Positions 2,951-51,439 of a stretch of DNA of 64,000 nt are shown one piece after another. The position numbers and the translations under genes were made by a program. The stretch's first letter is position 1. Each line of letters starts with the position of its first letter. The DNA lies in contig NC_086108.1 in NCBI RefSeq assembly GCF_963921235.1, positions 26,724,001-26,788,000 of the forward strand. Direction: 5' to 3'. This DNA is from Mobula hypostoma. Taxonomy: Eukaryota. The notes below the pieces were generated by a model. It was not told where the DNA came from. It was given only the letters and a program-made list of their open reading frames with translations, and did not search any database.

Positions 2951-4734
2951 TGGATTGATTGTTGGTCTAAGCTGTTTTTGCTGTAGCAATCCACTGCTGC
3001 CTTTTCTACTTGTCTAGTGGACAGATGCAGATAGCTAGGTTAAGTGTATGTTGCCACCGTGCGTGAATCGTCAGGAATATAGGGAGAATAAATGTGATAT
3101 GATTATGAGATTAGCCTAAGTGGGTGTTGATGGTTGGTGCAGAGTCAGTGGACCAACTGGCTGTTTCCATGCCATATGAATCCATGAATTTTCTGTTTTT
3201 TTAAGTGAGCAGAGAAGTAGCTACATAATCAATAAGGCTGGAAACCATTTTAAAAGCTCACTTGTAATTAATTTGATGAAGTGTAACATTTTCAAGGTAT
3301 TTGTTTTAAATCCTAGAAATTTTCTCAGCTGTTCATTGATTTATGAAGATTCGATTGAAGAAAACTATAATTCTACATAGCCTGTGTTGCAGGAGAAAAT
3401 CACTGAATGTAACTTCTGAGATTCCTGTTAACAGCACATGTGTGGATTCCAGAATTCATCCTTTCAATGTCATTACAACTGATAAAATCTGCACCATTGT
3501 TTCAATGAGTCATCAGTGCTTGAAGCGAGCTCCCTGAGGGATGTGTTGGAGGTAGCTGGTAATGATTTGTTCAAATATAAATTAGAATTTTCTGAAAATT
3601 ATTTTGGATCCAGTAAATGAATAAATTGACAATTATGCAGAGCCTACAGCAGAGAATTAGGGCAGTTGACCTAATTCAGTTCTCATAGTGTACAAGTCCA
3701 CGCAAACCTCCCCAGTCCTTTAAATTCCATTCTGATAGAGTGTAGCTTTTTGTTCCTTTATCTTTCATGAGAGTACTAAATTTCCCTTGAAGCTATATTT
3801 TGGGAAGGAGTACCAAATTTTTGCTATTGTTTAAGTAAAGAATTTTCTCCCTGTTTTCTTCTTGAAAATATCAATAACTATTCTGTTCTTTTGTTCTGGC
3901 TGTCATCACGTGGAATATTTTCTCCTTGTCTACCTTGTTGAACACTTCAGTAATTTTGAGTTCCCTTGAGCCTTAATTTTTTGGAGAATGAATTCGAGCT
4001 TGCTTGGTCTTTCTCAACACGCACAACCTCTTAATTTTAGCATCATGTTTTTTTTTATCTATCTTGTCATCTTTTCTATAAATTCTGATGTCCAGTGTCA
4101 TTCCTAGCAATCCCAAGTATGGTCCAAGATTCTCTACAAGTCTAATACAATGTTGTTATGTGCCATAGTGGTGCACTAATCTGTGCTGTTCACCCAGTTC
4201 AAACTTGACCTTAGGTATGTCCACGCAATTTGCACATTCTCTCTGTGTTTGCAGAGATTTACTCCAGGGGCACTGGTTTCATCCTATATTCCCGAAGATG
4301 CACTGGTCCATTATTTGGCAATTATAAAATAACCTTGGCAAATGAAACAAAGAAGAGTTATTATGTGTGTACATGATAAAGAACCAGTTCGCAGTATGCA
4401 ATAAGGGTAATTCACACAGAACCGGAAGTGACGTTGATGAGCTGGTTGTACATGTTTGTGTCGGACTGAAGCCATTTTGTGTAAATAAATATGTGTTAGT
4501 TTTACTCATGCTAAGTTTGTCTTTTATCAAGAACAAACATAACATAGTGTCAGAGGTTGGCATGAGGATTAAATAGGGAGACTAAATGTACCACAAGCAA
4601 TTAAGAAAGAGATGCTAGGTTCTGATGGAGATGAGCTGCCATTGCTCACCAAATTCACAACAGAAATCCTGTCATCATAAGCTAAGTCCTCTCGCACCTT
4701 TGCAGTTGACTGGCAATCTAACTGATAACTAGAA

Positions 4735-5850
4735 ACTCCTCTACCCCAGGCTGGGAGACCCCAGTCAGTCCAGATTGGAAGCAGCATCTCCAACACCATC
4801 ACACTGAGCACGGGGGCCCTCCAGGGCTGTGTGCTCAGTCCACTGCTGTTCATTCTGCTGACCCACAACAGTGCAGCAACACACAGCTCGAACCACATCA
4901 TCAAGTTCGCCGATGACACGACCGTGGTGGGTCTCATCAGCAAGACCGATGAGTCAGCGTACAGAGAGGAGGTGCAGCGGCTAATGGACTGGTGCAGAGC
5001 CAACAAATTGTCTCTGAATGTGAACAAAACAAAAGAGATGATTGTTGACTTCAGGAGGACATGGAATCACCACTCTCCGCTGAACATCGACGACTCCTCC
5101 GTAGAAATTGTTAAGAGCACCAAATTTCTTGGTGTTCACCTGGCGGAGAATCTCACCTGGTCCCTCAACACCAGCTCCATAGCAAAGAATGCCCAGCAGC
5201 ATCTCTACTTTCTGCGAAGGCTGAAAAAAGTCCATCTCTCACCCCCCATCCTCACCACATTCTACAGAGGTTGTATTGAGAGCATCCTGAGCAGCTGCAT
5301 CACTGCCTGGTTCGGAAATTGCACCATCTCGGATTGCAAGACCCTGCAGCGGATAGTGAGGTCAGCTGAGAAGATCATCGGGGTCTCTCTTCCCGCCATT
5401 AGAGACATTTACACCACATGCTGCATCCATAAAGCAAACAGCATTATGAAGGACCCCACGCACCCCTCATACAAACTCTTCTCCCTCCTGCCATCTGGCA
5501 AAAGGCACCGAAGCATTCGGGCTCTCACGACCAGACTATGTAACAGTTTCTTCCCCCAAGCCATCAGACTCCTCAATACCCAGAGCCTGGGCTGACACCA
5601 ACCTACTGCCCTCTACTGTGCCTATTGTCTTGTTTATTACTTATTGTAATCCCTGCACTATTTTGTGCACTTTATGCAGTCCTGGGTAGGTCTGTAGTCT
5701 AGTGTAGTTTTTGTGTTGTTTTACGTAGTTCAGTGTAGTTTTTGTATTGTTTCATGTAGCACCATGGTCCTGAAAAATGTTGTCTCGTTTTTACTGTGTA
5801 CTGTACCAGCAGTTATGGTTGAAATTACGATAAAAAGTGATGACTTGACT
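4735..5850 (+). mobile_element. 5'-truncated Rex1/Babar-type LINE inside the Gypsy element
   Basis: ORF 4831-5595 with KFADDTTVVGLI, KTKEMIVDFRR and AQQHLYFLRRLKK (RT plus DUF1891-type C-terminus); 3' UTR to ~5850. Confidence 0.88.
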
Positions 5851-5852
5851 AC

Positions 5853-7328
5853 TGTGGGAGGCGAGGAAGGAGATTGCTGAGCCTCTGGTGATGATCTTTG
5901 CATCATCAATGGGGACGGGAGAGGTTCCGGAGGATTGGAGGGTAGTGGATATTGTTCCTTTATTCAAGAAAGGGAGCCCAGGAAATTATAGACTCGTGAG
6001 CCTTACCTCAGTGGTTGGTAAGTTGATGGAGAAGATCCTGAGAGGCAGGATTTATGAACATTTGGAGAGGTATAAAATGATTAGGAATAGTCAGCATGGC
6101 TTTGTCAAGGGCAGGTCGTGCTTTACGAGCCTGATTGAATTTTTTGAGGATGTGACTAAACACATTGATGAAGAAAGAGCAGTAGATGTAGTGTATATGG
6201 ATTTCAGCAAGGCATTTGATAAGGTACCTATGCAAGGCTTATTGAGAAAGTAAGGAGGCATGGGATCCAAGGGGACATTGCTTTGTGGATCCAGAACTGG
6301 CTTACCCACAGAAGGCAAAGAGTGATTGTAGACGGGTCATATGGAGGTCAGTCACCAGTGAAGTCCCTCAGCGATCTGTTCTGGGACCCTTACTCTTCGT
6401 GATTTTTATAAATGACCTGGATGAGGAAGTGGAGGGATGGGTTAGTAAGTTTGCTGATGACACAAATGTTGGAGGTGTTGTGGATAGTGTGGAGGGCTGT
6501 CAGAGGTTACAGCGGGACATTGATAGGGATGCAAAGCTGGGCTGAGAAGTGGCAGATGGAGTTCAACCCAGAAAAGTGTGAAGTGGTTCATTTTGGTGAG
6601 TCAAATATAATGGCAGAATATAGTATTAATGGTAAGACTCTTGCCAGTGTGGAGGATCAGAGGGATATTGGGTTCCGAGTCCAAAGGACACTCAAAGCAG
6701 CTGTGGTTAAGAAGGCGTACAGTGTGTTGGCCTTCATCAATCGTGGAATTGAATTTTGGAGCTGAGAGGTAATGTTGCAGCTATATGGTACCCTGGTCAG
6801 ACCCCACTTGGAGCACCGTGCCCAATTCTGGTCACCTCACAACAGGAAGGATGTGGAAGCCATAGAAAGGGTGCAGAGGAGATTTACAAGGATGTTGCCT
6901 GGATTGGGGAGCGTGCTTTATGAGAACAGGTTGAGTAAACTCGGCCTTTTCTCCTTGGAGCGACAGAGGATGACAGGTGACCTGATAGAGGTGCATAAGA
7001 TGATGAGAAGCATTGATTGTGTGGATAGTCAGAGGCTTTTTCCCAGGGCTGAAATGTTTGCCACAAGAGGACACAGGTTTAAGGTGCTGGGGAGTAGGTT
7101 AAGTTTTTTACTCAGAGAGTGGTGAGTGCATGGAATGGACTGCTGGCAATGGTGGTGGAGGCGGATATGATAGGGCCTTTTAAGAGACTTTTGCATTGGT
7201 ACATGGAGCTTAAGAAAATAGAGGGCTAAAGTTAAGCCTTGTAATTTCTAAGGTAGGGACATGTTCGGCACAACTTTGTAAGCCGAAGGGCCTGTATTGT
7301 GCTGTAGGTTTTCTATGTTTTTATGTTA
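5853..7328 (+). mobile_element. 5'-truncated CR1 LINE inside the Gypsy element
   Basis: PGNYRLVSLTSVVGK, DFSKAFDKV, KFADDT and LVRPHLE in shifting frames; TTTCTATG-type tail at ~7310. Confidence 0.92.
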
Positions 7329-19600: not shown

Positions 19601-22002
19601 AAGTACCAGTTGGATATTATTTTGAAAAGGGAGTATTAATGAGAAAGTGGAGATCACCTACAATTCCTGCTCCTGAGGAATGGGAAGTTAATCATCAGGT
19701 TGTTGTTCCTAAAATTTACTAAAATGAGATTTTGACTATGATTCATAGTATTCCTTTGGGTGGTCATTTAGGGGTAAAGAAAACTATGAACAAAGTTTCT
19801 AAACATTTTTATTGGCCTAGTTTAAGACAAGATGTGGCAACATTTTGTAGAACATGTCATACATGTCAAATTGTTGGTAAACCTAATCAGGTTACTCCAG
19901 TGGCTCCACTGCAACCAATTCCTGTATTTGGTGAGCCGTTCTCAAAAATCATTGTAGACTGTGTAGGTCCTTTGCCAAAAACTAAAACTGGACATCAATA
20001 TTTATTAACTATTATGTGCACAGCATCTAGGTTTCCAGAGGCAGTACATCTTAGGAATATTACATCTAAAACTGTGACAAAAGCTCATAAAATTCTTCAC
20101 TTATTTTGGGCTGCCTAAGGAAATACAATCAGATCAAGGTAGTGATTTTATGTCTGGGTTGTTTCAGCAGATAGTTTATAAACTGGGAGCAAAGCAGATT
20201 ATTTCCTCAGCCTATCATCCAGAATCACAAGGAGCCTTGGAGAGATTTCATTCTACACTATAAACTATGATTAGGACATATTGTGTGGAAAATGAAAATG
20301 ACTGGGATGAAGGTACTACTTTTTGCATTAAGGGAGGCAGTGCAGGATTCATTAGGTTTTAGTCTTTTTGAACTTGTGTTTGGACATAAAGTTCGAGGAC
20401 CTTTGGCTTTGTTGAAGGACCAGTGGATTAATAAAGAAGTACACACTAGTTTGTTAGATTATGTTTCAAAATTTAAAGAGTGATTGTACAAAGCTTGTAG
20501 TTTGGCCAAGGAAAATTTAAAGTTAGCTCAAGAGAAGATAAAGACGTGTTATGATAAGGAAGCTAGGATGAGGTCATTTAAGCCTGGAGATAAGGTGTTG
20601 GTTCTCTTCCCAGTGCAAACGAACCCATTACAAGCAAAATTCCATAGTCCTTATGAGATTAAATCTAAGGTAAATGAATGAGGTGATTATGTGGTAAAAA
20701 CCCCATATAGTTGAAAGACAACACAGCTGTATCATATAAATATGATAAAACTGTATTATGAAAGAGAGGTTGCCACTGTAACTGTTAAGAAAAAGGGTTA
20801 AGGAAATTAAACTCCAATTTAATAATCCAGTTTAATGTTACAGGAGTGCAACATTTTGATCACTCATATTAGGGGTAAAGACAATGTGATCGCTGATTGC
20901 CTGTCTAGATGTTAAATGTACAATGAAAATTTGTTTTTTTTTGGAGTGATATTTCATCATTTGTAACACTCCTACTGTACAGTAGTTTGTAAAGAGCTGA
21001 AAGATAAGTTTGTATATATTGTGTGTTTTGTAAATTTAAGACCTTTGTATTTTTTTAATGTATAAATTGTTAAAATTTTCCTCTTTAAGAGACCAAAATT
21101 TTTTTTTTGGAGGGAGGTGTTACATGCTCAGGGAGATCTGTTTTTTTTTGTGAGAATGATGGAATGGTCTTTTGGAGGTCACCTGATGTGATTTTCCCGC
21201 CGATGTGAGGTCATGTGATGACATGTCCCCCCCGCCACCCCCGTGACTATATAAGCGTCGACTCAGGTGACGCAGTAGGAGTTTTTGAGTTTGTAGATTT
21301 CCAGGTAGAACGTATTGTGCCTCTGTTTCTGTTGCGTGTTTGTTTTTGTGATGCAGTTTCATTTTTAAAACAGAAGGTGCGTTCTCTTACAAGATGTGGT
21401 ATTATTGGACTGGAAATTTGTGGCTGGAAGTGCCAATTTACTCAATTCCGACAATTGAAGGAAGAGTGAAGAATTCATCGAAGGATCGAGAGAAGTCAGC
21501 ATCGTTTGGCACTTTAATAAAGAATCGACCTTATTGAGTCTTCATTGGAGAGAGCCTGCATTGAGATAACTCTTGCAAAAGGGCAATGAGTTCATGCAAA
21601 AAGGTGCTCTCTCTCTCTAAAGGAATTTAAGACCAGTCGATTTAAACTGTTTATTTTCGGCATCGGGAATCCTGTAGACAGAACCAGCAGTAAAGGTGCA
21701 TCTGTGAAGAAACCTTTCTCCAGAGAAGTCTCTCCCAATTGAATGTGTGAATCTGTTGGACTTTCAATGTTATCTCTTTAAGAACTATATCTGACTGTAT
21801 CGCTTTAAGAACTGTTTTCGCATTTAACGCCTTAAGAACCAGAGCTGAGTGGAGTTGGTGAACAACTGCGTACCTGTTAACCTCCAGTTAAAGTTTTCCT
21901 TTGTTTTTTTTTCCCTCAACGTTCATACATGTTTAATAAATGTTTGGTTGGTTTTGATAAAACCTGTCTCAATTAATATTCATTGTTGCCGGTTATGTAA
22001 CA
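16700..22002 (+). mobile_element. Gmr1-like Gypsy LTR retrotransposon, RT deleted
   Basis: LTRs TGTTACA...TAACA at 16700-17582 and 21118-22002; 4-bp TSD CTTG (16696-16699 and 22003-22006); tRNA-Pro-like PBS TGGGGGTTCGGCCAGGA; PPT GGAGGGAGG; gag with CCHC knuckle CNYCKKPGHVVANC, protease LRDTRASQ, integrase (H2C2 zinc finger, VDCVGPLP, SDQG, YHPESQG), then RNase H end (HIRGKDNVIADCLSR). Confidence 0.95.
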
Positions 22003-22517: not shown

Positions 22518-24532
22518 CTTCTTTCTTTTTTAACCTTTTTATTAATTTTCAAATTCATAAACATAGCAACAATACTGGTACAAAGAGATTGGGATTACAT
22601 TACTGGTAATTAACATACGCGAACAAAAACTACAGATAATACAGGTATATTAGGCCTCCCAAACACTTAATATAATTAAACTTGATAAGAAGAAAAATGA
22701 AAAAATATCAAGAAAAAAAACAAATTAGAAAAGAAACTAAACTACACTGAACAAAAACTAAACTAAACTAAACAAAGCTGGGCTATTATATTACATTGAA
22801 TACAATCATTGATGTCATTAACTCCGCTCCTCTGTCCATATATTTTAGGTTAATAAAAAGGATTCAGAAAAAGTCAAGCTACATTATATGAAAGTGTTGA
22901 ATAAATGGCCTCCAAGTCTCTTCAAATATAAACGAAGGATCAAAAGTGACACCTCTGATTTTTTCCAAATTTAAACAGGATATAGTTTGGGAAAACCATT
23001 GAAATGTAGTAGGAGGATTGATCTCTTTCCAATTCAATAAAATGGATGTTCTAGCCATTAATGCAGCAAATGCAATCATCCCAACAGCTGAAAAGGATAA
23101 ATAACTATGTTCCATCATTGATAAACCAAAAATTGTGGTAATAGGATAAGGTTGTAAATCAATACCCAAAACTGTTGAAATAATATCAAAGGTATCTTAC
23201 CAAAATGTTTCCAAAAGAGGGCAAGACCAGAACATATGAGTCAAAGAAGCCACCTCAGAATGACATCTGTCACAAACAGGACTTATATGAGAGTAAAAAC
23301 GAGCTAGTTTACCTTTACACATGTCGGCCCTATGCACCACCTTAACTTGTATCAATGTATGTTTAGCACATATAGAGGAAAAGTTAACTCATTGAAAAAT
23401 TCTCTCCCATTTCTCTTTAGGTAAGTGAAGTTGAAGTTCCCTTTCCCATTCATTCTCAATTTTACCAGATATACCTGGCTGTATTTTCCCTGAGAAATCT
23501 ATTCTGGCAGTAATATCCCTGCTTGCTCACTTTAGTAACTTTTCTGGTTACAAAGTGAATCTTAATAAGAGTGAACTCTTCCCATTAAATATGCAGGTTC
23601 CTATTTATAGACGTTCAGCACTCAGATTGATTACTGACTATTTTACTTATCAGGGTGTTGGGACTACTAAGAAGCATAAGGATTTATTTAAGCTCAATTT
23701 TTTACCTTTCATTAATCAGGGTAAACAATTGTTTACTAAATAGTCCCCATTGTCTTTATCACTGATTGGCCAAATCAATGCTATTAAGATGATTATTCTA
23801 CCTAAATTTTTATATCTATTTCAAGCGGTACCAATTTTTATTTCTAAATCCTTTTTTGATACTGTTGATTCTAAGATTTCCTCATATATATGGCAGAATA
23901 AAAATCCTAGACTAAGTATAAAATACTTACAGAAGTCCAAAAAGGATGGTGGTTTGTCATTGCCGAATTTAAGATTTTATTACTGGGCAATTAATATTCA
24001 ATGTTTAATATTTTGGACACAAGATTAGGATATAATTCCAAGTCCACAATGGGTAAACCTTGAATGTAATTCTGTACAAGGGTTTTCATTGGTTTCTATT
24101 TTAGAGACTTCACTTCCTTTTGTTCTCTCTAAATTGAATAAACAAATGGTTAATCCAATAATTAAATATACATTACGAATATGGTTTCAATTTCGTAAAT
24201 TTTTTGGTTTGAACAAATTTATTTTATCAAGCCCTATTATATCTAATTTTTTTCCAACCCTCTGTTATGGATCAAGCCTTTTTGATATGGAAAATGAAGG
24301 GTATAATATGTTTACGTGATTTATTCTTGGATAACTGTTTTATGTCTTTTGAACAGCTGTCTAATAAATATAATTTGCCTAGATCCCATTTTTTTAGATA
24401 CAAATTAGAAACTTTTTAAATACTACGCTACCTACCTTTCCAACCTCATATCCAACTGATATCACGGAAAAAAAATTAGGTCTAAACCCTTATCAGAAGG
24501 GTTTAACGGCAATTATTTATGATATGATTATG
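22518..24532 (-). mobile_element. L1-clade LINE, 5'-truncated with 5' inversion
   Basis: 13-bp TSD AAAAACATGTCAA at 22505-22517 and 24533-24545; A-rich tail at the left end; minus segment ~22518-23488 (zinc knuckle, TWRPFI); plus segment ~23489-24532 (KVNLNKSE, LPKFLYLFQ, GGLSLPN). Confidence 0.92.
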
Positions 24533-25392
24533 AAAAACATGTCAAATTCATGTGGGTAAATTTTTTGTACAATTTATTCATTTTTTATGACAAAGAAACC
24601 GCTGTCCCCAACACTTCTGTCATTATCAACACACAACATATTTTAGAAACCGATCAAGTTTTTTCAGACAACTCCTTATGTGGTTGCCATGGAAATGAGT
24701 CATGGCAGAAGACTGACATTTTGATGTCCAGAAATGTGAGTAATTTAAAGAGTTATACTTCCTGATCTGAGAGTATATTTATTACGTGTCATTACCAAAT
24801 GAGTTATGATTTGAGTGTTTTAAATGAGAAATAAATAACTCATTTTATTTCTGACAGGTTGACTATCCAGTTGAGTTACCAAGTGCGAGATTTAGCCAAC
24901 TTCTTCTTTAAAAAATGAGAAATGCCATTACCATCACACAACTGGTTGTGAGGTAAAGACAGTGGTGGTACAGACAGCTCATTAGTTTATCAACCTTACT
25001 TCTATGAAAGTATAGTTATAAGATATAAGTATAATGTAAAATTACATTGATTTTAATTAAATTCAACAGTTCTCCACTTGAACAATATGGTTGAGTAGAC
25101 TCTAAAGTAAACTTATGTGTTTTTTTTCAAAAATTGTCAAGATGGCCCCAAAATCATCAGCAGACCAATCAAAAAAAAAATACAGAGACACAATTAAAGA
25201 AAACCCAGTGAAATATCAGCAGTTCTTTGAAAGAGAAGCTGTAAGATACAAAAAGAGAAGGAAGACAGGAAAAGTTAGATCAAAGAAAGAATAGGGCTGC
25301 TGATAAGGAAAAAAAAACAGGCAGTAAAATGTTTTATAGCAGGGAATACCACATCAGAATCTTCAGTAGGGTTGGCACGGCGCCGGCTGGGG

Positions 25393-25458
25393 TTAGGGTT
25401 AGGGTTAGGGTTAGGCTTAAGCTTAGGTTTAGGGTTAGGCTTAGGTTTAGAGTTAGAG
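25393..25458 (+). repeat. Degenerate telomeric hexamer tract, 11 units
   Basis: TTAGGG x3, TTAGGC, TTAAGC, TTAGGT, TTAGGG, TTAGGC, TTAGGT, TTAGAG x2. Confidence 0.95.
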
Positions 25459-25695
25459 TTGGACAGCTGACAACCCTAGCTCCGCCCCTCATGCATCGCT
25501 GCCACGTCACCCGTAATACATTAACCCGGGTGGTGGTGGGAAAAGGAGTTAGGACTTGCCGCCGGCTAGCCGTGTGGTGCTGGATATGTGAATTAATAGT
25601 CCTTAGGCAATTGTTGAATGAGTTTTATTGAAATAATTAGCAATGTAGACAGTACAGTACAAATAGGTGTCATTGTACATTCATACAATGTATAA

Positions 25696-26790
25696 TCAAG
25701 CTTGTCTTGATGTTGAAGTGACCCTCAGTACCTGAGTGGTATTGCACCGCGGTGGTGTGCCTGGTACTTCGCCTGGTGTCTGAAGTTCAAACTCCACATC
25801 TGACATGTTGAATGAGCAGGGTACAGTAGTTGTGCCTTTAATTTCTGTCTGCTTAATTCTGGCTGTCGATTCTGCGTAAGGGAAAATGCCTTTTACTTTA
25901 GAAGCATTGAATTCTTGCTTGTTAGTGTCTGGAAGTGTTTCTAAATTCTACTGAGATACTGGGAACTTAGGTCTGTACTCGATCTTCATGTAAATCCTAA
26001 TATAACCCTCAACAGACTTAACAATGCTAACGTCAGGTGAGTAGCCTGGATCGGACTTGATAAGAATCTGCGGTGCCTTTGTATTGAACGCAATGTTCAT
26101 TAGCAAGCTGTAAGGAAAATGGACATGGGCAGGTGTCCTAAGGACAATCCTGTCAGTAGATTTCCATGCAGGTGTCACTTTGAATCTCCCTGCATTAGAG
26201 CCAACTCTTTTTTTTTCTTGGCGTGGACAGAATCCCTGCCAACTACTTCAGTCTGAGTGCTGTCAGCGACATTTGGATCAAAATTGGAAAGGAGAGGACT
26301 TACAGGAGCCTGGAATTTTTCTACTACCCATGATCTGTCGACTTGTAAGCTCGCATTGTTGAAAGGGTTGCAGCCAAATTTTAAGTTATTAAATCTGCTA
26401 ATCTCATTGCTTTGCCATGGGCCATTGATGTGGACAGTATATGGTATTGTTTCGCCCTCATATAAAACCACACTGTTTTCCATGACTGGGTCCTGTGTGA
26501 GGTCCTCATTCCAGTAAGCAAATACCGGTGGCTTGTACACAGCCAGAGGATCAATTGGGAAGTTATTGGGATTTAAGCCGGAGCAATAGGGAAGTCTCTC
26601 GGTGTCAAAGAGGATACTCACTCTGTTTGGTGCTGGGTACCAGCATCCTTTTTCTACGTCTGGTTTCCTTGTCTGAAATTCTCCAATAAATTAATTGATA
26701 GAGACGCATCGGAATTCAGATGCGCTAGCCATTAGAAATTGCTCTGCTCCCGGTGTCATGAAATTGCACCATTGACAGATGGTGCAAGAG
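25696..26790 (-). pseudogene. Endogenous parvoviral element: capsid (VP) pseudogene, ~365 codons
   Basis: Collinear VP-like motifs WCNFMTPGAEQFLMASASEFRCVSI, VSILFDTERLPY, DPVMENSVVLYEGE and KAPQILIKSDP...EGYIRIYMKIEYRPK; stops at 26691 and 25948; frameshift in the T-run at ~26208-26216; terminal TGA at 25696; minus-strand AATAAA at ~25624. Confidence 0.82.
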
Positions 26791-27954
26791 CAGATTGACC
26801 TCCATCTTCCAGAGGCTTCACCTCTGCATGCTGACAGGGCTAACACACACTGAGAAGCTCCTCATAGAAGAAGCAGGCAAGAATTGAGAGTAAACAGAGC
26901 TAAAGTATACTGTGATCCCAATGAAAAGGTCGATGACACTTTGAGAAAGAGCAAAAAGTACAATAAAAGATACAACCGGCTTTCCCAGAAACTGAGCACT
27001 TCAGAATCCCCAAAAATTAAAGTGACGAAACAAACGTGTCTAAATCCCAAGTGCCCAAGGAAGGTGCTGCCCTTCCACAATATGGTGCTCTCTGAGCTTA
27101 AAAACAACATATCAGCAATCAGCCATGAAAGACAAGCAAATAATGTCCAAATTTCCGGCTGGGAAAATTTTTAAAGAACTACCACTTGGTGAAAGAACCA
27201 AACAACAACTTGGTTTCTCTGCCAAGACAATGCATAAAAACAGAGAAAGGCCTGCTGGTCTTAAGTTCTACAGGAAAGTCAGACAGATGTTTTGGCAGAG
27301 TTAATATTAACCTAAAACCGTTGTTTGTCAATGTCAAAAGTATTTTTTCATTACCAACACAGTGCATATTTTGATGTGAAATAAAGTTTTGTTTAGTAAT
27401 ATTGGTCTGAACTGATTTGCTGGAGTCAAGTGCTTTGATGCCAAAATCAGCAGTCTGTCAAAATGGGTTAAAATTCCTACAGTCTAATTAGTAAACAAAT
27501 GTTTCATTGTTTAGTCAAGGAAAATATTGACATGATTAAGAAAATGCGTCTCAAAAATATATTCTGAATGTACTTAAAAATGAATCAAATCAAATTTATT
27601 GAAGGGCGTGGATTTTACTTGCAGGATTGACTTCAAAATCTTTGTCATTTCATTTTAAATTCAATTCAGTATTTTGATGCTATGAAGGTAACAACGCTCA
27701 TCTGTGAAAACTCTGCAATAACACCTTGAAATATAAAAGTTCTCTTAAAGGTTGATCAATGCCAAGATATGGTCTTCATTCCAGAGCCTAAAGTAAATGT
27801 TACAACATAAACAGAACAGAGTTTCAAGAAATTTAATTTTCAGAATTTCAAGTCGTCAAAAGCACCCCTAATTGAAGAATCACTCTTATATAAATGAATC
27901 AGCTGTACTAATACACACTAAAATGCTTCCATACTTCAGTAAATATATTTAAGA

Positions 27955-30166: not shown

Positions 30167-32676
30167 AGAAACATAGAAACATAGAAAATAGGTGCAAGAG
30201 TAGGCCATTCGGCCCTTCGAGCCTGCACCGCCATTTATTATGATCATGGCTGATCATCCAAATCAGAACCCCGCCCCAGCCTTCCCTCCATACCCCCTGA
30301 CCCCCGTAGCCACAAGGGCCATATCTAACGCCCTCTTAAATATAGCCAATGAACTGGCCTCAACAGTTTCCTGTGGCAGAGAATTCCACAGATTCACCAC
30401 TCTCTGTGTGAAGAAGTTTTTCCTAATCTCGGTCCTAAAAGGCTTCCCCTTTATCCTTAAACTGTGACCCCTTGTTCTGGACTTCCCCAACATCGGGAAC
30501 AATCTTCCTGCATCTAGCCTGTCCAATCCCTTTAGGATCTTATACCTTTCAATCAGATCCCCCCTCAATCTTCTAAATTCCAATGAGTACAAGCCCAGTT
30601 CATCCAGTCTTTCTTCATATGAAAGTCCTGCCATCCCAGGAATCAATCTGGTGAACCTTCTTTGTACTCCCTCTATGGCAAAGATGTCTTTTCTCATATT
30701 AAGGGACCAAAACTGCACACAATACTCCAGGTGTGGTCTCACCAAGGCCTTGTACAACTGCAGTAGTACCTCCCTGCTCCTGTACCCGAATCCTCTCGCT
30801 ATAAATGCCAGCATACCATTCGCCTTTTTCACCGCCTACTGTACCTGCATGCCCACTTCCAATGACTGGTGTATAATGACACCCAGGTCTCGTTGCACCT
30901 CCCCTTTTCCTAATCGGCCACCATTCAGATAATAATCTGTTTTCCTATTTTTGCCACCAAAGTGGATAACTTCACATTTATCCACATTAAATTGCATCTG
31001 CCATGAATTTGCCCACTCGCCCAACCTATCCAAGTCACCCTGCATCCTCTTAGCATCCTCCTCACTGCTAACACTGCCACCCAGCTTCGTGTCATCCGCA
31101 AACTTGGAGATGCTGCATTTAATTCTCTCATCCAAGTCATTAATATATATTGTATAACAACTGGGGTCCCAGCACTGAGCCTTGCGGTACCCCACTTGTC
31201 ACCGCCTGCCATTCTGAAAAGGTCCCGTTTATTCCCACTCTTTGCTTCCTGTCTGCTAACCAATTCTCCACCCACACCAATACCTTACCCCCAATACCAT
31301 GTGCTTTAAGTTTGCACACTAATCTCCTGTGTGGAACCTTGTCAAAAGCCTTTTGAAGTGAATATACCACATCCACTGGTTCTCCCCTATCCACTCTACT
31401 AGTTACATCCTCAAAAAATTCTATGTGATTCGTCAGACATGATTTTCCTTTCACAAATCCATGCTGACTTTGTCTGATCATTTCACCGCTTTCCAAATGT
31501 GCTGTTATCACATCCTTGATAACTGACTCCAGCAGTTTCCCCACCACCGACATCAGGCTAACCGGTCTATAATTCCCCGGTTTCTCTCTCCCTCCCTTTT
31601 TAAAAAGTGGAGTTACATTAGCCACCCTCCAATCCTCAGGAACTAGTCCAGAATCTAACGAGTTTTGAAAAATTATCACTAATGCATCCACTATTTCTTG
31701 GGCTACTTCCTTAAGCACTCTAGGATGCAGACCATCTGGCCCTGGGGATTTATCTGCCTTCAATCCCTTCAATTTACCTAACACCACTTCCCTACTAACA
31801 TGTATTTCGCTCAGTTCCTCCATCTCACTGGACCCTCTGTCCCCTACTATTTCTGGAAGATTATTTATGTCCTCCTTAGTGAAGACAGAACCAAAGTAAT
31901 TATTCAATTGGTCCGCCATGTCCTTGCTCCCCATAATCAATTCACCTGTTTCTGTCTGCAGGGGACCTACATTTGTCTTTACCAGTCTTTTCCTTTTTAC
32001 ATATCTATAAAAGCTTTTACAGTCCGTTTTTATGTTCCCTGCCAGTTTTCTCTCATAATCTTTTTTCCCCTCCCTAATTAAGCCCTTTGTCCTCCTCTGC
32101 TGAACTCTGAATTTCTCCCAGTCCTCAGGTGAGCCACTTTCTCTGGCTAATTTGTGTGCTCCTTCTTTGGAGTTGATACTATCCCTAATTTCTCTTGTCA
32201 GCCACGGGTGCACTACCTTCCTTGATTTATTCTTTTGCCAAACTGGGATGAACAATTGTTGTAGTTCATCCATGCAACCTTTAAATGCTTGCCATTGCAT
32301 ATCCACCGTCAATCCTTTAAGTGTCATTTGCCAGTCTATCTTAGCTAATTCACGTCTCATACCTTCAAAGTTACCCCTCTTTAAGTTCAGAACCTTTGAT
32401 TCTGAATTAACTATGTCACTCTCCATCTTAATGAAGAATTCCACCATATTATGGTCACTCTTACCCAAGGGGCCTCTCACGACAAGATCGCTAATTAACC
32501 CTTCCTTATTGCTCAAAATCCAGTCCAGAATAGCCTGCTCTCTAGTTGGTTCCTCGACATGTTGGTTCAAAAAACCATCCCTCATACATTCCAAGAAATC
32601 CTCTTCCTCAGCACCTTTACCAATTTGGTTCACCCAATCTACATGTAGATTGAAGTCACCCATTATAACTGCTGTC
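30167..32676 (-). mobile_element. Young 5'-truncated CR1 LINE (end of APE plus RT)
   Basis: 520-aa ORF 31140-32702 (MGDFN, SDHN, PGNYRPVSL, GVPQGSVLGP), continued in other frames to 30263; (TTTCTATG)n tail; nearly identical to 1-1157. Confidence 0.96.
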
Positions 32677-33249
32677 ATTGATGACTCTTGAATGTACAAC
32701 ACTACTTACGAGACACCATTGGATTAAAAGAATGAATTGCAATAATATAAATTGATTTTATGACTAAAAGTAGAGAGCTGTGTAAATAGTGATTTTTTGC
32801 GGGGGGAATGGCAGGGTGTAATACTATTGAGGACAGTGCTGCAAACTGTTCTGTTAATGAGGTGAGTGTGGGTTGATGTTGCTCTCTGCCACAAAGGGCA
32901 GCCCAAGGAGAAGTTAGGCAACAATTTGCAGAAGACATTATATTGGGTGATGTGGTAAACTGTGAGGAGGATGTTTATAAGTTACCTAAATGGCAGACAA
33001 GTGGCAACTGAAATTTAATACAGTGTATTGTAAAGTGTAGCTCAGTAATTAAAAAGCAAAAAGAAATATATACATAGATGTTGGAAATCTGAAATAAAAA
33101 CAGTAGATACAGGTGAGGCAGCATCTGTGGAGAGAGTAAAAAAGCTAACATCAATGTCAAATTTATTGTCATATAGATTTATCCAGAATTGCATTGAAAA
33201 TCTTGCAGTGGAATCATAAGGTAAGAAGCATTTCCAAAAACATGAGCAC

Positions 33250-46399: not shown

Positions 46400-49015
46400 C
46401 TGTCCCCCCTGTATCCCAGTGTGTGGAACAGCCCTTAATCAACACCTGATCAGCAACTTCAGGATGTTAGAAATATCCTGTGCACCCACATGGTGGTAGC
46501 AGGTTTGCTGCTCATTCCTACAGAAGGGCAATAAGGTGGCAGCACATGGTCCTCATCAACCTGTCATCGTCCCAATGAACAGGGGCAGGCAGCCAAGTTT
46601 CAGCTTTCCAGGGAGTATAGTTAGTGACTGCTGTTGTTTTCAGGCTCAGTCTGCCAATTATTGTCTGCCACATTCCTTCAGGGAAAGTCTTGGTACTGAA
46701 TTGTAGGAGTCCTATTTTTGTACTACTATTAGTGATTTTGTCTTTGGACCAAGTCTGAGTCCATTCCAGACCTTACTTTGCACTTGGGTTCACCACCATC
46801 CATAGCACTCTGATTGCAGCACGATTGAGCCAACATGAACCTAGCAGAGTATAAATGTCTATGAACCACATTTGCCTACCAGAGAGCAACTGTAGGCAGA
46901 CATGACAATATGCTTCAGGAGATGCTCACCACTCTCCAGAAACTCTCCTACTCCAGTAGGCAGGATCCAAGTTTGGCCCATGTGGCTGCCAGTTCCGGCC
47001 AAGTTCAAGCTGGAGACGCAATGAGGGATCACTGCACCTACTGGCTCCCAAGTGGTGCGATGGTAACCCTGAAGTGCATCAAGGATTCCTGGTACAATGC
47101 TCCTTGGCCTTTGAGTTACAGCCAACCAAGTTCCCATTGGAACACAGTAAGGTAGCCTATATCGTCTTGTTCCATGCAGGAAGAGCTCTTGCCTGGTCCA
47201 CTGCACTCTGGGAGAAGGGTTCACTCATCACTGCCAGTGCAGACCTATTGTCAGACACTTTGAGGAAGGTATTCTATCACCCCACTGGAGGACATGGATC
47301 TGTGATAAAACTCCTCAACTTGTGCCAGGGGAATCAGTCTATGACCAATTATGCATCTTGGCCACAGAGAGCAGTTGGAATATGGAAGCACTAACTGCTC
47401 TAATCCATAATGGATTGAGTGATGAGCTAAAGGATGTCCTTGTGGCTCAAGACCCAGTGGAGGACCTAAAGAGTCGTATGGACCTGGCGATTTGATAACC
47501 GATTAACAGAAAGGAAAAGGGATAGATGAAGGGTATTATTCTGAAGAGACTCTTATCCCTGACTATCCTATGTCCTCTCCTATCTCCTGGGCTTAGGCTC
47601 CGCCTCAGCCACTGCTGATCCCAGTCTCCGAGGAGCCTATAAATATAGGCCAGACAAAGCTCTCTCAAGCTGAAAGAGAGAAGAGGGACTTACTGTAAAG
47701 AGGCCGGACATGATCAGATCTCTTGTCCCAAGCTGCTGGGAAACACTTGGGACTGTCCAATGAATGGAGGCCTGAGATGGCTGCTAGCATCACTCCCGGT
47801 TCAGCTCCCTCCAGCAAGATGCTTCCCTTCGCTTTCATGGAGAGACCAAAGACATTGCCTAGATGCACTGATTGACTCTGAAGCAGAAGGGAATTATTTG
47901 GGCCCCAGAATGGCCAGAAGATTAAAAATCTCCTTTTCGTTTCTCGGCCATTGATTCGTTGACAAGGCCTGGATGGGGGACCTTTAGTGTCAGGGCAGAT
48001 CAACCACCAAACATCCCTGCTCAAGCTCAAGACCAGCCAGCATGTGGAATCAATCCATCTCCATTCCATTCACTCCTCCAGAAAAGCCTCTCATTCTGGG
48101 TCATCCCTGGCTGTCATCCCACAATACGAGAGTTAATTGGACTACTGGGATTGTTCTGGGTTGGTCAAACCAGTGAAAAAAGAAATGCATCCAAAAGGAG
48201 CAGAAGACCTTCTAAGTTGCTATAGGAAATAGGGTTTACTTCTGAGACTACCACCGAGACTACTTCTGATATATTTCCTGAATTACCTGTTGAACCTTCC
48301 ACCTCTAACCCCATTGCATCCCATTTGTCTAGGGTACCTCCAGAATATTCATACCTACTGGAGGACTTCAGAAAAAGGCCACCATTCCACCAGCTCACCG
48401 GAACTACAACTGTGCCATTTATCTGATAATGGATATTTGTCCTCCTTGGAGACGGCATTATTCTCTAAGATTCCCAGAGAGGAAAGCCATGGAAGACTAG
48501 ATCCCAGAAGTTCTGGCATCTGGGTTTATTCAGCCATCCACATTTCCCATTTGGGCCTGGTTTTTGTCACCAAGAAGGATGGAGGACTAAGGCCTTGTAT
48601 TCTACAGGAAGCTACATAAGATCACTGTTAAAAATTGGTACCTCCCCTCTCACATGAACATGGCCTTTGAGATTCTCCAGGGTGCTACAATATTTATCAA
48701 ATTGGGTCTCCGTAGTGCCTACAACCTAATTCACATTCGTGAGGGAGACAAATGGAAAATGGCATTCAACACACTTACGGGCCACTACGAACACCGGGTC
48801 ATGTTTTTCGGGTTGGCAAAAGCTCCAGTGATATTTCAAGCCTTCATCATTGATGTGCTCTGGGAGATGCTTTCCATCTAGATGATATACTCATTTTCTC
48901 GTGGTCCACTCAAGAACACATCAACAAGACTGGCAGATTCGACAACAGCTTCTCAAGAATCAACTATTTCATCAATCTCGAAGAGTGAATTCCATGTATC
49001 CATAGTCTCCTTCTG
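46400..49015 (+). mobile_element. 3'-truncated Tf2/sushi-like Gypsy element nested in the provirus
   Basis: gag SKVAYIV..GRALAWSTALWE, protease [52 protein letters not shown] and LDDILIFS. Confidence 0.9.
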
Positions 49016-49641: not shown

Positions 49642-51439
49642 GTTGGCGAATGGCCAAGTGGTTAAGGCGTCGGTCTAGTGATCTGAAGGTCACTAGTTCA
49701 AGCCTCAGCTGAGGCAGCGTGTTGCGTCCTTGAGCAAGGCACTTAACCACACATTGCTCTGCGACGACACCGGTACCAAGCTATATCGGCCCTAGTGTTC
49801 CTCCCTTGGACAACATCGGTGGCATGGAGAGTAGTAGTAGTAGTAGTCATACTTTATTGACCCCGGGAGAAATTGGTTTTCGTTACAGTTATATCATAAA
49901 TAATAAATAGTAATAGAACCATAAATAGTTAAATAATAATATGTAAATTTGCCAGTAAATTATGAAATAAGTCCAGGACCAGCCTACCGGCACAGGGTGT
50001 CTGACCCTCCAAGGGAAGGGTTGTAAAGTTTGATGGCCACAGGCAGGAATGACTTCCTATGACTCTCTGTGCTGCATCTTGGAGGAATGAGTCTCTGGCT
50101 GAATGTACTCCTGTGTCCACCCAGTACATTATATAGTGGATGGGAGACACTGACCAAGATGGCATGCAACTTAGACAGCATCCTCTTTTCAGACACCACC
50201 GTGAGAGAGTCCAGTTCCATCCCCACAACATCATTGGCCTTACAAATAAGTTTGTTGATTCTGTTGGTGTCTGCTACCCTCAGCCTGCTGCCCCAGCACA
50301 CAACAGCAAACATGATAGCATTGGCCACCACAGACTCGTAGAACATCCTCAGCATCGTCTGGTAGATGTTAAAGGACCTCAGTCTCCTCAGGAAATAGAG
50401 ACGGCTCTGACCCTTCTTGTAGACAACCTCAGTGTTCTTTGACCAATCCAGTTTATTGTCAATTCGTATCCTCAGGTATTTGTAATCCTCCACCATGTCC
50501 TGGATGGAAACAGAGGTCACCGGTACCTTAGCTCTACTCAGGTCTACCACCAGCTCCGTAGTCTTTTTCACATTAAGCTGCAGATAATTCTGCTCACACC
50601 ATGTGACAAAGTTTCCTACCGTAGCCCTGTACTCAGCCTCATCTCCCTTGCTGATGCATCCAACTATGGCAGAGTCATCCGAAAACTTCTGAAGATGACA
50701 AGACTCTGTGCAGTAGTTGAAGTCCGAGGTGTAAATGGTGAAGAGAAAGGGAGACAAGACAGTCCCCTGTGGAACCCCAGTGCTGCTGATCACTGTCGAA
50801 CACACAGTGTTGCAAGCACACATACTGTGATCTGCCAGTCAGGTAATCAAGAAACCATGACACCAGGAAAGCATCCACCTGCATCGCTGTCAGCTTCTTC
50901 CCCAGCAGAGCAGGACGGATGGTGTTGAACGCACTGGAGAAGTCAAAAAACATGACCCTCACAGTGCTCGCTGGCTTGTCCAGGTGGGCGTAGACACGGT
51001 TCAGCAGGAAGATGATGGCATCCTCAACTCCTGGTCGGGGCTGGTAGGCGAACTGGAGGGGATCTAAGTGTGGCCTGACCATAGGCTGGAGCAGCTCCAG
51101 AACAAGTCTCTCCAGGGTCTCCATGATGTGGGAGGTCAATGCCACCGGTCTGTCGTCATTGAGGCCGCTGGGGCGCGGTATCTTCAGCACAGGGACGAGG
51201 CAGGACGTTTTCCACAGTACAGGAACCCTACGGAGCCTCAGGCTCAAGTTGAATACATGGCAAAGTACTCCACATAGCTGAGGGGCACAGGCTTTGAGCA
51301 CCCTGGTACTGACACCGTCCGGTCTTGTAGCCTGAGAGTGGAAGCTTGCAGCCATCCATATAACTTTGCCCAGGCCTGCGCCCTGGAATCCATTCAAGGC
51401 ACAAATCCATGGTCTCACAAGACTAACAGATGCCTATAA
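49642..51439 (+). mobile_element. tRNA-derived SINE split by a Rex LINE
   Basis: A box TGGCCAAGTGG and B box AGTTCAAGCC at ~49651-49705; body appears to resume at ~51340. Confidence 0.7.
49833..51333 (-). mobile_element. 5'-truncated Rex1/Babar-type LINE
   Basis: FFDFSSAFNTI, GVPQGTVLSP, KFSDDSAIVG; (CTA)n tail; probable TSD GAGAGT at 49827-49832 and 51334-51339. Confidence 0.92.

What the first reader, a model, noticed from the sequence alone, without database searches (positions are those of the whole stretch)
25696..26790. Endogenous parvovirus capsid gene from a divergent lineage
Seen: joining two ORFs and reading through two stops gives ~365 codons, a terminal stop and a polyA signal, with few lesions. 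Motifs follow the order of the parvoviral jelly-roll: FMTPGAEQFLMASASEFRCVSI (cf. [21 protein letters not shown]), ILFDTERLPY (cf. VFTDSEYQLPY) and APQILIKSDP (cf. PPQILIKNTP). C-terminal spacing recalls hamaparvovirus (chaphama/ichthama) VPs. No NS1/Rep is visible in the window. Inference: a fossil of a possibly unsampled fish parvovirus.
Basis: partly seen in the sequence, partly recalled or inferred. Interest (0 to 1): 0.82.

Follow-up and report, generated by a model that had tools for sequence, protein, structure and literature searches.

The report
Fossil capsid of unsampled fish parvovirus
A broken capsid gene and the genome end of what is most likely a parvovirus sit inside a repeat of this fish genome, one of six such insertions; no living virus with a matching capsid turned up in the databases searched, so they likely record an undescribed virus lineage of sharks and their kin.

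Summary
Window 25370-26784 is a 1.4-kb insertion in a host repeat. On the minus strand it carries a 5'-truncated capsid (VP) frame with two stops and one frameshift, a polyA signal and about 330 bases of viral right end. Five more related loci lie on other contigs. One has a 356-codon open frame that passes Pfam's Parvo_coat cut-off (34.2 vs 27 bits). The only database relatives are two catshark 'uncharacterized' proteins (about 50-56% identical); no exogenous virus was found. Low dN/dS between copies (0.11-0.28 in 3 of the 5 pairs, 0.19 and 0.49 in two short ones) points to separate integrations of circulating viruses. Contigs of a second species bridge both junctions at about 97-98% identity, so the insertion is inherited and old. 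The hamaparvovirus reading is not supported: the weak sequence hits go to B19/AAV capsids, and the subfamily stays open without a linked NS1. New here: the capsid is compact; 3 of 4 right ends stop at the same motif; three carry telomere-like repeats; and one RNA contig splices into the last 150 bases of VP. Verdict: a dead endogenous parvoviral element of an unsampled lineage.

The parts
25370..26784 (-). Whole insertion (endogenous parvoviral element: 5'-truncated VP plus viral right end)
   Evidence: Flanks are contiguous in other copies of the host repeat, with 7 host bases missing and no target-site duplication; orthologous junctions in a second species
26205..26775 (-). VP segment 1 (predicted helix alphaA, strands D-G region); one in-frame TAA at 26691-26693
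   Evidence: 67% aa identity to the C58 paralog, whose residues 34-161 match PF00740; secondary-structure labels from a low-confidence model of C58 and recalled parvovirus nomenclature
26202..26220 (-). Frameshift in an A-rich run between the two VP segments
   Evidence: Frame change between tblastn segments
25696..26204 (-). VP segment 2 with PQILIKSDP motif and C-terminal tail; in-frame TAG at 25948-25950; terminal TGA at 25696-25698
   Evidence: 68% aa identity to C58; the same C-terminus and stop in the C62 and C18 copies
25624..25629 (-). AATAAA polyadenylation signal
   Evidence: also present in the C62 and C18 copies
25530..25548 (-). Conserved non-coding motif (CTCCTTTTCCCACCACCAC) of the viral 3' region
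   Evidence: Identical stretch in C58 and one mismatch in C18, although C58 is only 70% identical in VP; not clearly kept in C62
25378..25467 (+). Degenerate telomere-like (TTAGGG-type) repeat tract inside the viral right end
   Evidence: Repeat family D1; TAACCC counts 5, 1, 2, 0 and AACCCT counts 4, 4, 4, 1 in the C50, C62, C18 and C58 ends
25365..25378 (-). Right-end terminus motif (..CCAACCCTAC) with a 6-base microhomology (25365-25370) to the host target
   Evidence: Same end in C62 and a one-base variant in C58, where it closes an 11-bp hairpin stem; host empty site
26766..26785 (.). 5' junction: 7-bp snap-back inverted repeat including 9 filler bases (26776-26784)
25872..25886 (-). Splice acceptor (pyrimidine tract plus CAG) used by one RNA contig; the exon continues from 25871 into the VP tail
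   Evidence: RNA contig 100% identical over 25726-25871, then a 67-base loose end; site sequence
48773..48845 (-). Upstream exon piece (antisense to a reverse-transcriptase relic) and its GTAAGT donor at 48778-48773; intron of 22.9 kb
   Evidence: A 20-base probe matches only at 48779 in the window; the 30 bases shown match exactly; RVT_1 hit on the + strand; other genomic copies are at most 83% identical
24900..25369 (+). Host interspersed repeat, left part of the target
   Evidence: At least 40 scored places, 74-92% identity in the listed pieces
26785..27400 (+). Host interspersed repeat, right part of the target
   Evidence: contiguous with the left part in empty sites

Best explanation
This is a dead endogenous parvoviral element: the 3' part of a capsid gene and the right end of what was most likely a linear single-stranded parvovirus genome, likely patched into a chromosome break in the germ line and then left to decay. 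Shown: the insertion boundaries, the loss of 7 host bases, the absence of a target-site duplication and poly(A) tail, a 6-base microhomology at one junction and a snap-back filler at the other, three coding lesions, five paralogous loci and an orthologue in a second species. Inferred: (1) The DNA was captured by host end-joining repair (microhomology-mediated, polymerase-theta-like), not by retrotransposition of viral mRNA. (2) The paralogs are separate integrations of related circulating viruses. (3) The donor lineage infected cartilaginous fishes, had a compact single-jelly-roll capsid of roughly 400-440 aa with a much shortened G-H loop region, and had a hairpin right end with telomere-like repeats. 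(4) The locus makes no capsid; its tail is at most used by chance as a late exon of a host transcript.
For: Capsid identity: the C58 paralog hits PF00740 at 34.2 bits, cut-off 27, E 1.4e-8, and the Pfam family search of the genome returns that same locus with 0 of 14 controls. All 60 shown of 76 PDB sequence hits are labelled capsid/VP, best B19 E 0.0023. The ESM first hit, 0.96, is a Cossaviricota capsid cluster. A low-confidence model gives a jelly-roll whose BFVD top 7 hits are all parvoviruses or densoviruses, with AAV-Go.1 first in VIA, Z 5.1, rmsd 6.9, 162 aligned. Endogenous state: empty sites and junction-bridging contigs of organism B with 14 and 21 differences in 740 and 709 bases. 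Separate integrations: unrelated flanks; dN/dS 0.11, 0.28, 0.14 and 0.19 with bootstrap intervals below 1 in 4 of 5 pairs. Right end: the C58 end folds as a hairpin, z -4.4, 0 of 200 shuffles as good; the shared terminus motif. Unsampled: only two catshark proteins were found among 5.8 billion, one of them plus one spurious repeat protein among 1.84 billion representatives, and nothing in viral or metagenome contigs.
Against: The window's own fragments score in no family or structure library. The catshark proteins miss PF00740, and for one of them the ESM first hits are smacovirus capsids at 0.92. Both AlphaFold models are poor (pLDDT 29 and 33): the PDB Foldseek search had no hit at E 0.001 or better, and the VIA Z-scores are tied across many jelly-roll viruses. 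No NS1 is linked to any of the six VP loci within the stretches fetched. The window's own right end does not fold better than shuffles (z -0.28 and +0.37). The C50-C18 pair has dN/dS 0.49 with interval 0.19-1.6, so duplication is not excluded for it. The repair pathway is read from junction signatures only.
Confidence: 0.85

Rival explanations
1. The capsid belongs to a hamaparvovirus (chaphama-/ichthama-like).
For: Short VP (LPY motif to PQILIK is 174 residues). ESM neighbours include 350-420-aa clusters with minority Denso_VP4, IHHNV_capsid and PF00740 labels. Fish hosts are typical of this subfamily (PMC8964545, text read).
Against: Sequence-level similarity to PF00740, B19 and AAV, which chapparvovirus VPs are reported to lack (PMC6631224). 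The solved pipefish chapparvovirus capsid was not among the 60 PDB sequence hits shown, and ranked 49th in VIA (Z 3.9, a tie-level difference).
Confidence: 0.15
2. The capsid comes from another ssDNA virus group (smaco-/CRESS-like or anellovirus-like), not a parvovirus.
For: ESM rank 2 for C58 (0.95) and ranks 1-2 for a catshark protein (0.92, 0.91) are smacovirus capsid clusters; the structure models are too poor to discriminate.
Against: PF00740 above its curated cut-off and no smaco-, circo- or anellovirus family hit at E up to 10; PDB sequence hits are all VP capsids; a defined linear end with a hairpin downstream of the polyA signal.
Confidence: 0.07
3. One ancient insertion was later multiplied inside the host genome by duplication or transposons.
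For: C50, C62 and C18 are 81-87% identical in DNA; the C50-C18 dN/dS interval includes 1; several copies lie in or beside repeats.
Against: No shared flanks; different 5' truncations; dN/dS well below 1 for 4 of 5 pairs, which neutral copies would not show; the window junctions look like a primary insertion.
Confidence: 0.08
4. The locus is a co-opted host gene (for example an antiviral capsid fragment or fusion exon) kept by selection.
For: One RNA contig splices at canonical sites into the VP tail, in the tail's reading frame. Co-opted parvoviral fusion genes exist in guinea pigs (10.1101/572735 and PMC12300724, search listing only). Catshark relatives are annotated as genes with long frames.
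Against: Three coding lesions and no start in the window copy; the upstream exon is an antisense retrotransposon relic with no ATG in that frame; a single contig at depth 5 from one run; frame match has a 1-in-3 chance; the acceptor is a by-product of codons shared by all four copies that cover it.
Confidence: 0.07
5. The telomere-like repeats were added by the host (telomerase healing at the break) rather than carried by the virus.
For: Repeat number differs between copies, and the window's tract is near-perfect TTAGGG in part.
Against: The repeats lie inside the element, between conserved viral sequence and the shared terminus motif, in copies at different loci; C58 has such units as part of its hairpin stem.
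Confidence: 0.2

Closest known systems
Endogenous parvoviral elements (EPVs) of vertebrates, in particular EPV parvovirinae.1-ScyCan of the small-spotted catshark (PMC9707805; passages, first part of section 9 and Table S6 read)
   Same: Parvovirus-derived germ-line insertion in a cartilaginous fish; unclassified below subfamily; degraded.
   Different: That study lists one chondrichthyan locus in 5 species, placed by Rep. Here six VP-derived loci lie in one genome with no linked Rep. I could not see the sequence or figure for ScyCan, so whether it is the same lineage is untested.
Parvovirinae major capsid proteins (Pfam PF00740; B19 VP2, AAV VP3)
   Same: N-terminal core (residues 34-161 of the C58 frame) aligns with profile positions 74-208; motif order TDW / MTPGA / LPY / PQILIK is kept.
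   Different: Only weakly similar (best PDB E 0.0023). About 140-160 residues shorter across the core: model 2-332 spans AAV-Go.1 226-697 and model 1-329 spans B19 32-519 in a low-confidence alignment. No PLA2 region is retained in any copy.
Scyliorhinus torazame uncharacterized proteins XP_072342358.1 and XP_072362826/7.1
   Same: Same protein family: 50-56% identity over nearly the whole length.
   Different: Annotated as host genes of unknown function with long frames (403 and 395 aa); the window copy is broken. Their genomic context could not be fetched.
Zander parvovirus OK236393 (PMC8964545; parts 1-2 of 3 of the text read)
   Same: Fish-associated, proposed new Parvovirinae genus, VP without GenBank relatives.
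   Different: VP1 of 582 aa with a glycine-rich N-terminus. It did not appear in any of my homologue searches (whether the collections hold it is not known), and I could not align it directly.
Chaphama-/Ichthamaparvovirus capsids (PMC6631224; abstract and section 3.5 read)
   Same: Short capsids with a variable C-terminal tail; fish hosts.
   Different: Reported to lack sequence similarity to other parvoviral VPs, which this lineage has.
Telomeric repeats at the ends of HHV-6 and Marek's disease virus genomes (PMC3533235; passages read)
   Same: TTAGGG-type repeats near a viral genome end.
   Different: Those are large herpesviruses that integrate at telomeres; these copies lie at interstitial sites, the repeats are few and degenerate, and no function is shown.

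Membership tests
Endogenous viral element | Flanked by host DNA with an identifiable empty site | tested here: met
   flanks contiguous in repeat copies; 9 of 13 locus rows (some overlapping the same place) show a gap of 7-15 bases, one 35, and the others do not align or repeat a place
Endogenous viral element | Inherited: orthologous insertion in another species | tested here: met
   organism B contigs bridge both junctions (two runs, one sample, one study)
Parvoviridae | VP homologous to parvoviral single-jelly-roll capsid | tested here: met
   PF00740 above cut-off for the 67%-identical paralog; PDB sequence hits; not detectable from the window fragments alone
Parvoviridae | Parvoviral fold confirmed by a confident structure | tested here: inconclusive
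   pLDDT 29 and 33; jelly-roll-level matches only
Parvoviridae | NS1 (HUH endonuclease plus SF3 helicase) upstream of VP | tested here: inconclusive
   All copies are 5'-truncated; one unlinked NS1 fragment on contig C36
Parvoviridae | Linear genome with terminal hairpin | tested here: inconclusive
   C58 end: hairpin z -4.4; C18 z -2.0; C62 z -1.4; window z +0.4. The shared terminus motif supports a defined end, but the left end is absent
Parvovirinae | Monophyly in the NS1 helicase tree | not testable with these tools
   No NS1 linked to this VP; no named reference set could be fetched (empty)
Parvovirinae | VP with sequence similarity to PF00740-type capsids | tested here: met
Parvovirinae | PLA2 domain in VP1-unique region (most genera; recalled) | not testable with these tools
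   Only about 200 bases upstream of the core survive in C58, with no Pfam hit
Hamaparvovirinae (chaphama/ichthama) | VP without sequence-level homology to other parvoviral VPs | tested here: not met
   Feature from PMC6631224; homology found
Hamaparvovirinae (chaphama/ichthama) | NS1 groups with hamaparvoviruses; auxiliary NP ORF | not testable with these tools
   No linked NS region
Retrocopy of viral mRNA (LINE-mediated) | Poly(A) tail after the polyA signal and a target-site duplication | tested here: not met
   The element runs about 250 bases past AATAAA with no tail, and 7 host bases are lost

The most novel reading that the evidence does not exclude
Cartilaginous fishes host, or hosted, an undescribed deep lineage of parvoviruses, at least a new genus, with a stripped-down Parvovirinae-type capsid and vertebrate telomere repeats built into the right-end hairpin. 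The repeats would let the viral end engage host telomere-binding or repair proteins, which would explain why this lineage entered the germ line at least six times in one genome and why three copies stop at the same terminal motif.
Probability: 0.25. Interest if true: 0.78.

Novelty: new variant of a known kind. Interest (0 to 1): 0.52.

Why it matters
A screen of 752 vertebrate genomes listed one parvoviral insertion in cartilaginous fishes (PMC9707805), and no shark or ray parvovirus turned up in my paper searches. These loci add a capsid family with no sampled living member, in the earliest-branching jawed vertebrates. It is intermediate in size between the large Parvovirinae capsids and the small invertebrate-type ones, so it bears on how parvoviral surface loops and host range evolved. 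It gives concrete probes for finding the virus in elasmobranch sequencing data and re-labels two 'uncharacterized' catshark genes as viral. Preserved genome ends are useful in themselves, and telomere-like repeats in a parvovirus end were not found in two searches. The window copy itself is a dead fragment.

Tried and rejected
Pfam and PDB searches with the window's own ORFs, and with stops read as X: no hits. Homologue searches beyond the catshark proteins: none; P0003 (E 4e-4) is a repetitive Thr/Asp-rich protein and was rejected. Viral and metagenome contig scans: none confirmed; these use few exact peptide words and are insensitive. NS1 fragment as a route to named references: nothing; PDB gave only weak E1, NS1 and Rep hits. 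Two AlphaFold runs were low-confidence; the PDB Foldseek search had no significant hit, and the Atlas structure search on a pTM 0.22 model was uninformative. A hairpin in the window's own right end: not supported. No listed sequencing holder is on record as RNA; the one RNA-guess run laid is discussed separately. Earlier findings of the scan: nothing relevant. Supplements: PMC9707805, all 21 files searched, only Table S6 names the catshark element, and figures are not held. PMC11521997, 11 of 13 files searched; the shark and skate rows shown (first two per term and file) were benyvirus-like or retroviral-envelope elements, so unseen rows or files may bear on novelty. PMC11089739: main-text passages only, 3 chondrichthyan parvoviral elements counted; its data files were not seen. 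PMC11071296: passages only, nothing on sharks.

Full report
OBSERVATION. They lie in two frames that meet at an A-rich run at about 26202-26220. There is one in-frame stop in each frame, a terminal TGA at 25696-25698 and AATAAA at 25624-25629. On their own these fragments match nothing in Pfam or PDB, even with stops read as X, so the motif resemblance needed outside support.

RELATIVES. A search of the host genome found related sequence on five other contigs: C58, C62 and C9, C18 and C21. These counts are lower bounds. The C58 copy has a 356-codon open frame, 67% identical in protein to the window. That frame matches Pfam Parvo_coat at 34.2 bits against a cut-off of 27, E 1.4e-8, residues 34-161; the family search of the genome returns the same place, with 0 of 14 control genomes ringing. 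In PDB, all 60 shown of 76 sequence hits are labelled capsid or VP; the named ones are B19 and AAV capsids, and the best E is only 0.0023 (the profile search gave 5 hits of the same kind). Among 5.8 billion proteins only two relatives appeared, both 'uncharacterized' proteins of the catshark Scyliorhinus torazame. A full HMMER pass over 1.84 billion representatives returned one of them and one spurious repeat protein. Viral and metagenome contig scans confirmed nothing. The ESM Atlas placed the C58 frame next to short ssDNA-virus capsids: first a 420-aa Cossaviricota cluster (0.96), second a smacovirus cluster (0.95); for a catshark protein the smacovirus clusters came first. AlphaFold models were poor. 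The better one gave parvo- and densovirus capsids as the top 7 BFVD hits, nothing significant in PDB Foldseek, and tied jelly-roll matches in VIA, led by AAV-Go.1 (Z 5.1, rmsd 6.9, 162 aligned). Together this makes a parvoviral capsid very likely. The sequence signal points to Parvovirinae-type VPs, while the length is much shorter: 174 residues from the LPY motif to PQILIK, and about 140-160 residues less than AAV or B19 across the core (low confidence). That the host is a cartilaginous fish is an inference from the catshark relatives and the 3.5-Gb genome.

INSERTION ANATOMY. Both flanks belong to one host repeat family. In other copies the two flanks are contiguous; the commonest empty site has 7 bases where the window has 1.4 kb. 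The insertion is therefore 25370-26784, with 7 host bases lost, no target-site duplication and no poly(A) tail. At the right-end junction six bases (25365-25370) fit both the host site and the viral end as seen in C62. At the 5' junction viral homology starts at about 26775; nine filler bases complete a 7-bp snap-back inverted repeat. From general knowledge of DNA repair (recalled, not from a call), microhomology, a small deletion and a templated filler are signatures of end-joining repair, in particular the polymerase-theta pathway. They are not those of LINE-mediated copying of mRNA.

RIGHT END. Beyond the polyA signal the copies share non-coding sequence, including a 19-base motif kept even in the 70%-identical C58 copy. 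Of four copies that keep this region, C50 and C62 stop at the same CCAACCCTAC motif and C58 at a one-base variant, where it closes an 11-bp stem (z -4.4, 0 of 200 shuffles). C18 ends differently, in a shorter fold-back (z -2.0). The window end itself does not fold better than chance. Telomere-like units lie inside this end: a tract of about 90 bases in the window, fewer units in C18 and C62, and a few in the C58 stem. Because they sit between conserved viral sequence and the shared terminus at unlinked loci, I read them as viral (about 0.8), with host telomerase addition as the rival. Two paper searches found no parvovirus with such repeats; terminal TTAGGG repeats are known for HHV-6 and Marek's disease virus (PMC3533235, passages).

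ONE EVENT OR MANY. Flanks of the copies do not align. Pairwise dN/dS on natural frame segments was 0.11 (C50-C58, 295 codons), 0.28 (C50-C62, 278), 0.14 (C62-C58, 246), 0.19 (C62-C18, 69) and 0.49 (C50-C18, 71; interval 0.19-1.6); dS is near saturation for the C58 pairs. Four of five intervals exclude 1. The copies therefore diverged mostly as replicating viruses and integrated separately; C50-C18 is undecided. C9 and C21 were not included in these counts.

AGE. Contigs from a different organism label (B; two runs, one sample, one study) bridge the left junction (740 bases, 14 differences plus gaps) and the right junction (709 bases, 21 differences, 2 gaps). The insertion is thus older than that split. 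At recalled elasmobranch neutral rates of roughly 0.4-1 per billion sites per year, 2-3% divergence would mean about 10-35 million years; this is a rough inference. The four best DNA holders may be the source of the assembly and were not counted.

TRANSCRIPTION. One contig from a run guessed to be RNA matches 25726-25871 exactly and continues with 67 foreign bases. These map to 48779 onward, antisense within a reverse-transcriptase relic whose other copies are at most 83% identical. The break points are a GTAAGT donor and a pyrimidine-tract CAG acceptor, so this is a spliced product over a 22.9-kb intron. The join is in the frame of the VP tail, but that frame has no ATG in the upstream piece, the evidence is one contig at depth 5, and the acceptor arises from codons shared by all four copies that cover it. 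I read it as chance use of a cryptic exon.

NS1. One broken NS1 fragment exists on contig C36. It has no VP beside it and no counterpart near any VP locus in the stretches fetched, and no named relative could be retrieved. Taxonomic placement by helicase is therefore not possible.

COMPARISON. Endogenous parvoviral elements are a known class. PMC9707805 (passages, first part of section 9, Table S6; preprint passages) lists 199 loci in 752 vertebrates, one of them in a catshark, unclassified within Parvovirinae; PMC11089739 (passages) counts three in cartilaginous fishes. I could not compare sequences, so overlap with those elements is open. PMC6631224 (abstract and section 3.5) states that chapparvovirus VPs lack sequence similarity to other parvoviral VPs, which argues against the hamaparvovirus reading. 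PMC8964545 describes a fish Parvovirinae candidate with a 582-aa VP. Searches for an elasmobranch parvovirus or this capsid family found none; most subscription journals are not covered.

VERDICT. Real; a dead endogenous parvoviral element (0.85 for the full reading, higher for 'viral capsid insertion'); lineage unsampled; subfamily open, leaning Parvovirinae-like. The class is known. The compact capsid, the repeated germ-line entry and the telomere-like right end make it a new variant worth following. Interest 0.52.

Noticed in passing
L010:700-1917 (G000:C36, about 31.129-31.130 Mb): A separate broken parvoviral NS1 fragment (PF01057, 71 bits, with Walker A, cut off just after it); the only NS1 found in this genome; no VP beside it and no database relative found. 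It may or may not belong to the same lineage.
   Followed up: partly
L002:1140-2352 and L006:8950-9452 (G000:C58): The most complete paralog: a 356-codon open frame, interrupted near its end by a retroelement, followed by the VP tail and a right end with a clear hairpin; CpG observed/expected only 0.07.
   Followed up: yes
L008:3757-5222 (C62), L021:7536-8050 (C18), L009:4800-5063 (C9), L031:1501-1611 (C21): Four further VP-derived loci, from about 110 to 1450 bases; C9 is only about 50% identical in protein to all others, so it is a third sub-lineage.
   Followed up: yes
P0001, P0002 (RefSeq XP_072342358.1, XP_072362826/7.1): Two catshark 'uncharacterized proteins', 93% identical to each other, are parvovirus-like capsid genes with long frames; candidates for recent insertion or co-option.
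   Followed up: partly
window 48779-48845 joined to 25871-25726: One RNA contig (run X9, depth 5) shows a canonical 22.9-kb intron from an antisense retrotransposon relic into the VP tail; the host transcript is not identified.
   Followed up: partly
window 24900-25369 and 26785-27400: The target is an unclassified interspersed repeat with basic, Lys/Arg-rich frame remnants and no Pfam hit; it may be an old DNA transposon (inference).
   Followed up: partly
runs X5/X8 records 9, 10, 11, 13 and run X10 record 3: Organism B also carries paralogs at about 90-93% identity to the window; organism C holds 176 bases of the VP with 2 differences, but no junction.
   Followed up: no
L013-L019 (G000:C18, about 123.37 Mb): An interstitial array of degenerate telomere-like repeats, unrelated to the capsid loci as far as seen.
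   Followed up: no
window 4700-6250, 19700-20700, 22900-24400, 30260-32705, 47600-49000, 49980-51430: The rest of the window is mostly decayed LINE-type and LTR-type retroelements (RVT_1, endonuclease and integrase zinc-finger hits; 22900-24400 judged by eye); no host protein-coding exon was identified.
   Followed up: partly
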